IMG/VR virus record: IMGVR_UViG_3300031994_000058
Span: 1-64,000 of that record
DNA: 64,000 nt
Source of the DNA: a virus
Taxonomy: Duplodnaviria > Caudoviricetes
Direction: 5' to 3' (one strand)
How positions within the stretch are numbered: the stretch's first letter is position 1; each line of letters opens with the position of its first letter. The translations under genes and the position numbers were made by a program. This document shows, piece by piece, positions 35,908-36,377 of the stretch. The notes under the pieces were generated by a model, which saw nothing but the letters and a program-made list of their open reading frames with translations, was not told the DNA's origin and ran no database searches.

Positions 35908-35955
35908 TTTGATTTCCTCCTTGTGGTTGTGAAAAATGAAAAAGATAAAGAACGA

Positions 35956-35994
35956 TGTAAAAGGTGGGATTTGAACCCACTACATTTCATTTAC
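35956..35994 (-). ncRNA. tRNA mini-helix (acceptor stem + T arm, D and anticodon arms absent)
   Basis: GTAAATG-AAATGTA-GTGGG-TTCAAAT-CCCAC-CTTTTAC; same flanks (GGAATGAT...ATCGTTC) as the 34943 element; starts just after promoter motif 36028. Confidence 0.75.
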
Positions 35995-36377
35995 ATCATT
36001 CCTACTATGGGAGTTGTTTTGTTTGCGAGAATGGCAGTACTTTGCCTTTCCAACCATCATATCGTTCTTTATCTTTCTCAAATTCTTTCCGCACCTTTCC
36101 AAGAACATCTTCGAGAGATTCCTCGCTATTATGCGGATCATCGCCAGCATTATAAAAACTATATGCGTCAGTCATTCCGAATTCAAATCCGCTACACCAA
36201 GGGAATAGACGAAATCGGAATCTGGGTCTCTTGTAGAATTGAGACCCAAGGACGATGTCTTCGTGTTTTAGAATTGCAAACCGTCCATCATTAACCTTTA
36301 GCTTTTTACACGCGTGATAGTACCCTTTTGAATATCCAGAGACATACGCTTGAAATTGAAGTCTAGATTTAAGTTTC

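What the first reader, a model, noticed from the sequence alone, without database searches (positions are those of the whole stretch)
35950..36002. Natural tRNA mini-helix paralogous to the cloverleaf element
It has the same promoter context, the same acceptor/flank sequence (GGAATGATGTAAA...TTTACATCGTTC) and a similar downstream leader (..ACAACCA.AAGGAGG..CAAAATGGCAG). It carries a canonical T arm (GTGGG-TTCAAAT-CCCAC), but the D and anticodon arms are replaced by 7 nt. Keeping the acceptor+T half, which RNase P, RNase Z and CCA-adding enzyme recognise, argues for function as a tRNA mimic. Together with the 33.8 kb RNA, it suggests an undescribed set of tRNA-mimic leaders controlling the two DUF6353-like genes.
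Basis: partly seen in the sequence, partly recalled or inferred. Interest (0 to 1): 0.82.

Follow-up and report, generated by a model that had tools for sequence, protein, structure and literature searches.

The report
Truncated tRNA-like leader of phage mRNA
A sheep-gut phage carries, right behind one of its own promoters, a 53-base RNA hairpin that is a cut-down copy of a neighbouring tRNA-shaped leader; relatives carry other cut-down versions at the same spot, so the kept tRNA arm is probably a leftover cap on a 5'-end stem that stabilises the mRNA, not a working tRNA mimic.

Summary
On the minus strand, 36002..35950 folds into a 13-14 bp closing helix capped by a canonical tRNA T arm. It aligns with the cloverleaf at 35021..34937, apart from a 32-nt gap that removes the D and anticodon arms.

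Both elements start at the predicted +1 of a phage-specific promoter. That promoter has 20 copies, all on the minus strand.

The cloverleaf belongs to a real structured-RNA family. In 13 sequences, 20 of 28 pairs show compensatory changes.

The functional reading is only partly supported:
- At the same position, relatives carry a full cloverleaf with a degenerate T loop, an acceptor plus D arm only, a plain 9-10 bp hairpin, or a form lacking the T arm.
- All forms keep a closed helix starting at +1, followed by a U-rich tract.
- 14 of 15 related contigs keep one full cloverleaf nearby.

My best reading (0.55) is a decaying second copy whose working part is the 5'-terminal helix, acting as an mRNA 5' stabiliser.

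One caveat: within its own sublineage the T arm is more conserved than synonymous sites.

Other notes from this scan, on other genomes and untested here, describe tRNA-like minihelices in unrelated phages.

The parts
36003..36028 (-). Phage-specific promoter motif (TCGCAAA box to T-W-A-T-A). It overlaps the last codons and the TAG stop of the upstream ORF. Predicted +1 is G36002.
   Evidence: There are 20 copies, all on the minus strand, with fixed geometry. Information content ends at position 27, which is G in 15 of 17 copies. In six promoters the Shine-Dalgarno sequence directly follows position 27. The +1 is inferred, not mapped.
35950..36002 (-). The mini element: a closing helix capped by a tRNA T arm. 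This is the finding itself.
   Evidence: Fold z = -4.9. Rfam tRNA 24 bits with 33 positions deleted. Model R1 48.5 bits.
35988..36002 (-). 5' strand of the closing helix: an 8-nt extension plus a 7-nt acceptor-like part. U35989 faces U35962.
35981..35987 (-). Bulge left at the deletion junction (remnant of the 5' side of the D arm). It is the fastest-changing part among the mini variants.
35964..35980 (-). T arm: 5-bp stem GUGGG/CCCAC with loop UUCAAAU.
   Evidence: It differs from the cloverleaf's T stem by two compensatory pair changes.
35949..35963 (-). 3' strand of the closing helix.
35932..35948 (-). U-rich tract directly after the helix.
   Evidence: Present after every long closing helix of this kind, in the window and in relatives.
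35916..35922 (-). Shine-Dalgarno sequence AAGGAGG of the DUF6353 gene.
35056..35907 (-). DUF6353 / phrog_2152 membrane-protein gene (283 aa) served by this leader.
   Evidence: Pfam E = 9e-40. PHROG match. Annotated 'membrane protein' in actinophage records.
34937..35047 (-). Paralogous cassette: the same promoter (35047..35022) plus the full tRNA-like cloverleaf leader (35021..34937) in front of the 226-aa gene.
   Evidence: ARAGORN and Rfam tRNA 50.9 bits. R1 109.5 bits. Covariation.
36005..36421 (-). Upstream ORF (138 aa). Its 3' end contains the promoter, and there is no terminator between it and the mini element.
   Evidence: An RNA-library contig spans 36188..35752.

Best explanation
The element is an internally deleted second copy of a tRNA-derived, tRNA-shaped 5' leader that this phage group places directly behind a phage-specific promoter.

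Evolutionary history (inferred from the comparison of relatives):
- The ancestral state is one full cloverleaf leader in front of the DUF6353 gene.
- In the clade that contains the window, the cassette from promoter to ATGGCAG was copied in front of the next gene.
- The original copy then lost parts in at least three independent ways. In the window's lineage, a deletion running from the D loop to the start of the T stem left the acceptor-type helix capped by the T arm.

What still works at this site is the long helix that begins at the first transcribed base, followed by a U-rich tract and a strong ribosome-binding site. It leaves 0-1 unpaired 5' nucleotides. That should shield the mRNA from 5'-end-dependent decay (RppH, RNase J1 or RNase E type). 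The T arm serves as the cap of that helix, not as a tRNA identity element.

Shown: the structure, the paralogy, the promoter family, the deletion series, and the rule that helices start at +1.

Inferred: the transcription start, the stabilising effect, and the lack of a tRNA-specific role.
For: (1) Paralogy and deletion:
- The alignment has one 32-nt gap and identical flanks.
- Rfam aligns the element as a tRNA minus 33 positions.
- L009 and L026 share the 5' part up to the junction and then diverge, as expected of two different deletions from one ancestor.

(2) The parent family is real. In 13 full copies, 99.4% of cells are paired, 20 of 28 pairs have changes on both sides, 0 of 500 shuffles reach this, and slid controls collapse.

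(3) Deletion series on a tree:
- The outgroups L010, L011, L023 and L025 have the cloverleaf upstream of DUF6353 and a hairpin or nothing downstream.
- The inner clade has the cloverleaf downstream, and upstream either the mini form (W, L026-L030), acceptor+D (L009), a plain hairpin (L001, L032, L033) or a full copy (L008, L031).
- The full upstream copy in L008 has lost both elbow motifs while keeping its stems.

(4) Redundancy:
- 14 of 15 contigs keep one full cloverleaf at one of the two sites.
- The whole 86.7-kb genome holds one full copy plus the mini element. The related genome G001 holds exactly one copy.

(5) All truncated forms keep a closed outer helix, z = -3.3 to -5.7.

(6) General design:
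- There are 20 promoters, all on the minus strand, and conservation ends at position 27.
- In 10 of 14 leaders that are long enough, a hairpin starts within 1 nt of that position, against 3.1 expected from shuffles.
- The other DUF6353 paralogue (11433..10297) has the same leader type with a plain 8-bp hairpin.

(7) Established knowledge: 5'-terminal stem-loops stabilise bacterial mRNA, and B. subtilis RppH needs at least two unpaired 5' nucleotides (review PMC3997798).
Against: - Within the mini lineage the T arm changed at 0-1 of 17 positions, while 4-fold sites of the adjacent gene differ by 31-45% and the bulge changed at about 3 of 9 positions. A pure leftover should drift faster. However, the whole 124-nt promoter-leader block differs by only about 5%, unstructured parts included. 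The signal is therefore not specific to the T arm, and could reflect recombination.
- The transcription start is inferred, not mapped.
- A contig from an RNA library runs across the promoter and the mini element (36188..35752). In read-through transcripts the helix would not be 5'-terminal.
- No polymerase or sigma factor that would read such a promoter was found.
- The helix plus U tract also looks like a terminator.
Confidence: 0.55

Rival explanations
1. Functional tRNA mini-helix mimic. The acceptor/T-arm stack is recognised by RNase P, RNase Z, the CCA-adding enzyme or T-loop modification enzymes. It would work as a processing signal like a t-element, or as a handle or decoy for tRNA-binding factors.
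For: - The T loop is canonical and the acceptor-plus-T stack is 7+5 bp.
- The T arm is more conserved than 4-fold sites within its sublineage, and than the adjacent bulge.
- The parent family keeps the D-loop GG and the T-loop motif while the anticodon loop is free to vary. This points to recognition of the tRNA elbow in the full copies.
- Read-through RNA across the element may exist.
- t-elements are a precedent for tRNA-like processing signals in mRNAs (PMC1920247).
- Other notes of this scan, untested here, report minihelices in other phages.
Against: - The T arm is absent or degenerate at the orthologous site in L008, L009, L001/L032/L033 and L024.
- The D arm, the T loop's elbow partner, is deleted here.
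- Both ends of the acceptor are locked in 7-8 further pairs, with no free 5' leader, no discriminator and no CCA.
- There is a U-U mismatch in the acceptor part in the window, or in the extension in L026-L030.
- A full copy sits 1 kb away, so a second tRNA-like signal is redundant.
Confidence: 0.15
2. Promoter-proximal intrinsic terminator or attenuator. The closing helix plus U tract would stop most transcripts, giving a roughly 60-nt RNA. It would also stop read-through from the upstream gene. Expression of the DUF6353 gene would then need read-through or an antiterminator, as at lambda PR'-tR' (recalled from memory).
For: - Every long closing helix of this kind is followed at once by a U-rich run. 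The run is very good in the L010, L011 and L025 copies and in the 33.8-kb leader.
- No other terminator lies between the upstream ORF and this promoter.
- Elsewhere the phage uses classical GC-rich terminators ahead of promoters.
Against: - In the window the U tract is interrupted (UAUCUUUUU) and the base of the helix is AU- and GU-rich.
- The short 5' hairpins at other promoters are followed by A runs, not U runs.
- RNA-library contigs bridge the mini element and the cloverleaf into the downstream genes (weak evidence, contigs only).
- A strong terminator right after a promoter would waste it.
Confidence: 0.12
3. Double-strand-specific processing site (RNase III type) in polycistronic RNA, like the RNase III sites that follow several T7 promoters (recalled from memory). 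Cutting the long helix would separate the upstream and downstream messages and leave protective hairpins.
For: - The closing helix is 13-14 bp and stacks on the 5-bp T stem, with an internal bulge.
- There is possible read-through across it.
- The helix is maintained by covariation in the full family.
Against: - The L001-type derivative is only a 9-10 bp hairpin.
- The helix begins exactly at the predicted +1 in most leaders, which fits a 5'-end role better.
- No cleavage data exist.
Confidence: 0.08
4. Neutral relic: the remains of the duplicated leader have no function of their own at this site.
For: - Several different deletion forms and a plain hairpin are tolerated.
- There are mismatches in the helix.
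Against: - Every derivative keeps a closed helix.
- The block is far more conserved than synonymous sites.
- The start-at-+1 rule holds across promoters.
Confidence: 0.1

Closest known systems
5'-terminal stabilising stem-loops of bacterial and phage mRNAs (ompA, papA, aprE leaders; review PMC3997798). The stem-loop at the start of T7 late transcripts is recalled from memory.
   Same: A hairpin begins at or within 1 nt of the first transcribed base, lies upstream of a strong ribosome-binding site, and recurs behind many promoters of one phage.
   Different: Here the hairpin is built from a tRNA-derived fold: a 13-14 bp helix capped by a T arm. Its stabilising effect and the 5' end itself are not measured.
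tRNA acceptor/T-arm minihelices, the minimal substrates of RNase P and the CCA-adding enzyme (textbook knowledge, recalled from memory)
   Same: A 7-bp acceptor-like stem stacked on a 5-bp T stem with a canonical 7-nt T loop.
   Different: - No free 5' leader and no 3' NCCA.
- Both ends are clamped by 7-8 extra pairs.
- A 7-nt bulge lies at the junction, and there is one U-U mismatch.
- The form is not conserved at orthologous sites.
t-elements of plant mitochondria (PMC1920247)
   Same: A tRNA-like fold inside or at the end of an mRNA that does not decode.
   Different: t-elements are defined by mapped RNase P and RNase Z ends. No ends are mapped here, and the clamped acceptor argues against simple access.
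Canonical tRNA (Rfam RF00005)
   Same: Derived from one. The paralogue scores 50.9 bits, and the D and T arms resemble those of a genuine phage tRNA in L040.
   Different: The mini element lacks the D and anticodon arms and scores below the gathering threshold (24 against 29 bits).
Viral and cellular tRNA-like structures (plant-virus 3' TLS, mascRNA, bacterial YrlA; recalled from memory)
   Same: Non-decoding RNAs that keep parts of the tRNA fold.
   Different: Those sit at 3' ends or are free small RNAs. This one sits at the 5' end of a phage mRNA behind a phage promoter. No Rfam family other than tRNA matched.

Membership tests
tRNA (Rfam RF00005) | Score at or above the family gathering threshold (29 bits) | tested here: not met
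   24.0 bits, E = 0.058 in a 2.6-kb search. ARAGORN does not call it.
tRNA (Rfam RF00005) | Four-arm cloverleaf with a D arm and a 7-nt anticodon loop | tested here: not met
   33 model positions are deleted. A 32-nt gap separates it from the paralogue.
tRNA (Rfam RF00005) | Free acceptor end (single-stranded discriminator plus CCA, encoded or added) | tested here: not met
   No CCA. The 3' side is paired with the 5' extension. CCA addition in vivo cannot be tested here.
tRNA-like leader family of this phage group (model R1, defined here) | Significant match to the covariance model, on the same strand as the gene | tested here: met
   48.5 bits, E about 3e-9 in the whole genome.
tRNA-like leader family of this phage group (model R1, defined here) | Starts at position 27 of the TCGCAAA-type promoter and is followed by a U-rich tract and a Shine-Dalgarno sequence | tested here: met
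tRNA-like leader family of this phage group (model R1, defined here) | Complete four-arm fold with D-loop GG and T-loop motif (the tRNA elbow) | tested here: not met
   The D and anticodon arms are absent; only the T loop is kept.
5'-terminal mRNA stabiliser stem-loop | Helix begins within about 1-2 nt of the transcript's 5' end | tested here: inconclusive
   Met if +1 is G36002, as inferred from the promoter logo and from the 10 of 14 rule. The 5' end is not mapped, and read-through RNA may exist.
5'-terminal mRNA stabiliser stem-loop | Removing it shortens the mRNA half-life | not testable with these tools
   Needs reporter or half-life measurements.
Intrinsic (Rho-independent) terminator | Stable stem directly followed by a U tract, with 3' ends there | tested here: inconclusive
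   The stem (-20.5 kcal/mol) is followed by UAUCUUUUU. The consensus scan called only the T arm. RNA-library contigs bridge the site.
t-element / tRNA-punctuation processing signal | RNase P and RNase Z cleavage at the boundaries of the tRNA-like fold | not testable with these tools
   Only assembled contigs of one RNA library were available.

The most novel reading that the evidence does not exclude
The acceptor/T-arm mini-helix is itself a working module of an undescribed class of phage 5' leaders built from clamped tRNA folds. Its T loop would recruit a host tRNA-binding factor (RNase P, a T-loop modification enzyme, or a tRNA-directed defence or translation factor) to the 5' end of the DUF6353 mRNA. 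The natural deletion series (full cloverleaf, acceptor+T, acceptor+D, plain hairpin) would then mark different regulatory settings rather than decay.
Probability: 0.15. Interest if true: 0.7.

Novelty: new variant of a known kind. Interest (0 to 1): 0.42.

Why it matters
On its own the mini-helix is a modest finding: a truncated duplicate.

Its value is as part of a natural deletion series of a well-supported, apparently undescribed family. These are tRNA-shaped 5' leaders that start at the first base of transcripts from a phage-specific promoter and are clamped by an extended acceptor helix.

- The series shows which parts a second copy can lose (any inner arm) and which it cannot (the closing helix at +1).
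- It also shows that one complete copy per genome is kept.
- This separates two likely functions, a generic 5'-end helix and a tRNA-elbow-dependent role of the full copy, and makes both testable with simple reporter swaps.
- It is a caution against reading every tRNA half in phage intergenic DNA as a functional mimic.

Tried and rejected
Searches for more relatives that gave nothing useful:
- blastn of the 1.3-kb region against GenBank phages: no match.
- Exact-word scans of IMG/VR and of JGI metagenomes with the shared 19-mers: apart from the one known relative (L001 = L007 = L020), every hit was a chance match in unrelated DNA.
- Structured pattern (D arm plus T loop) in bacterial genomes: no hit, so there is no prophage or host lead.
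- The same pattern in IMG/VR found only a genuine tRNA in a tRNA cluster of another phage (L040).
- 'Relatives' search: not available for a virus record.
- The ENA and Logan contigs could not be searched whole.

Polymerase or sigma factor for the promoter:
- No T7-type RNA polymerase domain. The control genomes also gave nothing, so this is uninformative.
- No sigma-70 region 2.
- Pfam and PHROG on the large ORFs gave terminase, portal, protease-capsid, tail, ThyX and a reverse transcriptase, but no polymerase.

Other checks:
- Rfam at E <= 10 gave only weak chance-level matches (SpF41, caiA, Plastid-ycf2).
- A suppressor-tRNA reading was rejected, because no CUA, UCA or UUA anticodon appears in any copy.
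- Homology between the 283-aa and 226-aa proteins is marginal, E = 0.048.
- Literature searches for DUF6353 and for tRNA-like phage leaders found nothing relevant.

RNA evidence: only assembled contigs of one sheep-gut RNA library were available.
- They cannot show starts, ends or strand, and DNA carry-over is possible.
- Stretches without cover are not evidence.
- The contig end at 35014 is only a hint.

A sigma-70-like reading of the promoter, with the -10 at positions 20-25 and the start near position 32, was considered and set aside for three reasons:
- The base at the -11-equivalent position is not conserved.
- Six promoters would lose their Shine-Dalgarno sequence.
- The extension of the helix covaries.

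Full report
**1. What is there**

The finding lies on the minus strand. Reading 36002 down to 35950, the element has four parts:
- a 13-14 bp closing helix;
- a 7-nt bulge;
- a 5-bp stem with the 7-nt loop UUCAAAU;
- the returning strand of the helix.

The fold has -20.5 kcal/mol, z = -4.9, and no shuffle among 200 is as stable. Rfam's tRNA model aligns it from position 1 to 71 with 33 positions skipped (the D and anticodon arms). The score is 24 bits, below the gathering score of 29. ARAGORN does not call it.

About 1 kb downstream on the same strand, 35021..34937 is a full cloverleaf. ARAGORN calls it a tRNA of unknown identity, and Rfam tRNA scores it at 50.9 bits. It has a 6-nt anticodon loop (8-nt if the last stem pair opens).

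The alignment of the two elements shows:
- identical flanks;
- a single 32-nt gap;
- nearly the same leader, down to the first seven bases of the two downstream genes.

The T stems of the two copies differ by two compensatory pair changes.

**2. Context: a promoter family and a rule**

Both elements follow a motif that occurs 20 times in the 86.7-kb genome. All copies are on the minus strand, all lie in the non-structural part (42 kb to 1.6 kb), and each sits a short distance upstream of a ribosome-binding site.

- Information content is high from TCGCAAA through an ACA box to T-W-A-T-A-G. It stops at position 27, a G in 15 of 17 copies, followed by purines.
- In six promoters the Shine-Dalgarno sequence starts right after that position.
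- In 10 of 14 leaders that are long enough, a hairpin starts within one base of it, against 3.1 expected from shuffles.

I therefore place the transcription start at position 27. That is G36002 for the mini element and G35021 for the cloverleaf. This is an inference.

No T7-type polymerase or sigma-70 region 2 was found in the genome. Of these, the polymerase search is uninformative, because its control genomes also gave nothing.

The promoter of the mini element lies inside the last codons of the upstream ORF.

**3. The parent family is a real structured RNA**

I collected relatives through homologues of the DUF6353 protein.

- A covariance model built from nine full copies finds the cloverleaf and the mini element as the only hits in the whole genome.
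- It finds one copy in the related genome G001.
- On 13 distinct full copies, 99.4% of cells are paired and 20 of 28 pairs carry changes on both sides. No shuffle of 500 reaches this, and slid controls collapse. The caveat is that this alignment was fitted to the model.
- The 7-8 pairs that extend the acceptor stem covary too.
- The D-loop GG and the T-loop motif are kept, while the anticodon loop is 6 nt, 7 nt or a GCGA tetraloop.

So the full element is a tRNA-shaped, non-decoding leader with a clamped acceptor end.

**4. The orthologous site in relatives**

Upstream of the DUF6353 gene I find the following:

| Contig(s) | Protein identity to the window | Form at the site |
|---|---|---|
| W and five Logan contigs L026-L030 | gene 89-92% nt identical | mini form |
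| L008 | 97% | full cloverleaf whose D loop and T loop have both lost the tRNA motifs |
| L009 | 81% | acceptor plus D arm only |
| L031 | in the 81% cluster | full cloverleaf |
| L001, L032, L033 | 77-78% | plain 9-10 bp hairpin |
| L010, L011, L023, L025 | 52-62% | full cloverleaves |
| L024 | 54% | form without the T arm |

On a protein tree, the outgroups have the cloverleaf upstream and a plain hairpin or nothing downstream. The inner clade has a cloverleaf downstream and the variable forms upstream.

- Fourteen of 15 contigs keep one full copy at one of the two sites.
- L009 and L026 share the 5' part up to the deletion junction and then diverge. This indicates independent deletions from one ancestor.
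- Every derivative keeps a closed outer helix, z = -3.3 to -5.7, followed by a U-rich tract.

It points to the closing helix as the part under selection at this site.

**5.

Between W and L026-L030, 4-fold degenerate sites of the DUF6353 gene differ by 31-45%. The T arm differs at 0-1 of 17 positions, and the single change turns G-C into G-U. The bulge differs at about 3 of 9 positions.

However, the whole 124-nt promoter-leader block differs by only about 5%, unstructured parts included. The downstream cloverleaf differs at 1 of 85 positions. The conservation is therefore not specific to the T arm, and could reflect general constraint or recombination. I keep 0.15 for a tRNA-specific role.

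**6. RNA evidence (weak)**

One sheep-gut RNA library holds contigs identical to the window.

- One contig spans 36188..35752, across the promoter and the mini element.
- One runs from 35014 to 34854, bridging the cloverleaf into its gene.
- One runs from 33866 to 33715.

These are assembled contigs. They show neither ends nor strand, and DNA carry-over is possible. If they are RNA, they argue against complete termination or complete 3' cleavage at these elements. They also show read-through into the DUF6353 gene.

**7. Mechanism**

The best reading is a decaying duplicate of the tRNA-like leader whose closing helix still serves as a 5'-terminal stem. With 0-1 unpaired 5' nucleotides, such a stem blocks 5'-end-dependent decay. 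B. subtilis RppH needs at least two unpaired 5' nucleotides, and 5' stem-loops are known to stabilise ompA, papA and aprE mRNAs (PMC3997798).

Rivals:
- a working mini-helix mimic or t-element-like processing signal (PMC1920247);
- a promoter-proximal terminator or attenuator;
- an RNase III-type site;
- a neutral relic.

**8. Comparison and novelty**

The element works like a 5' stabiliser hairpin and looks like a tRNA minihelix.

- It fails membership of tRNA: score, arms and free acceptor end are all not met.
- It is a truncated member of a leader family that I could not find in Rfam or in the papers searched.
- Other notes of this scan, untested here, describe tRNA-like minihelices in other phages, so the general theme recurs.

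I rate it a new variant of a known kind, with interest 0.42. The larger interest lies in the full cloverleaf leader and the promoter family.

Noticed in passing
window minus strand, T of TCGCAAA at 42027, 41286, 40467, 40111, 39730, 39379, 38899, 38276, 37575, 36028, 35047, 33905, 29275, 27952, 21591, 18710, 15527, 11521, 5892, 1655: There are 20 copies of a fixed-geometry promoter-like motif of about 27 nt, all on the gene strand and none in the structural module (42-86 kb). Conservation ends at a G followed by purines, which resembles phage-polymerase promoters more than sigma-70 ones. No matching polymerase or sigma factor was found.
   Followed up: partly
It starts at the predicted +1 of promoter 33905, is closed by a long outer helix, has several inner hairpins including a 5-bp stem with loop UUUGAAG, and is followed by a very good U tract. 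It is conserved in L008, L026-L031. It is only a weak hit to the cloverleaf model (17 bits, E = 0.2).
   Followed up: partly
window 35021..34937 (-) and relatives: One complete tRNA-shaped leader per genome is kept in 14 of 15 related contigs. Its anticodon loop varies (6 nt, 7 nt, GCGA tetraloop) while the D-loop GG and T-loop motif stay. Its acceptor stem is clamped by 7-8 covarying extra pairs. Its function is unknown.
   Followed up: partly
window 10297..11433 (-) with promoter at 11521: A second DUF6353/phrog_2152 paralogue (378 aa). Its leader is of the same type: an 8-bp hairpin at +1, a U-rich tract, and a similar Shine-Dalgarno context.
   Followed up: partly
window 62673..63746 (-) and 63758..63838 (-): A reverse-transcriptase gene (phrog_1423) lies next to an Rfam RT-18 RNA (59 bits). 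This may be a diversity-generating or other retroelement in the tail-gene region.
   Followed up: no
window about 40169-40110, 38334-38276, 33963-33905, 42100-42027 (-): A roughly 60-nt double-hairpin element with a second TCGCAAA box is stacked directly upstream of four of the promoters. One DNA relative skips 59 nt at 33897-33957.
   Followed up: no
window 36005..36030 (-): The last codons and the TAG stop of the 138-aa upstream ORF are encoded by the promoter motif itself. The same overlap is seen in relatives.
   Followed up: no
L040 762-833 (IMGVR_UViG_3300020020_000027): A genuine tRNA (anticodon loop with UCC) in a tRNA cluster of another phage shares the D-arm sequence and a similar T arm with the leader family. 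This is consistent with the leaders deriving from a real phage tRNA.
   Followed up: no
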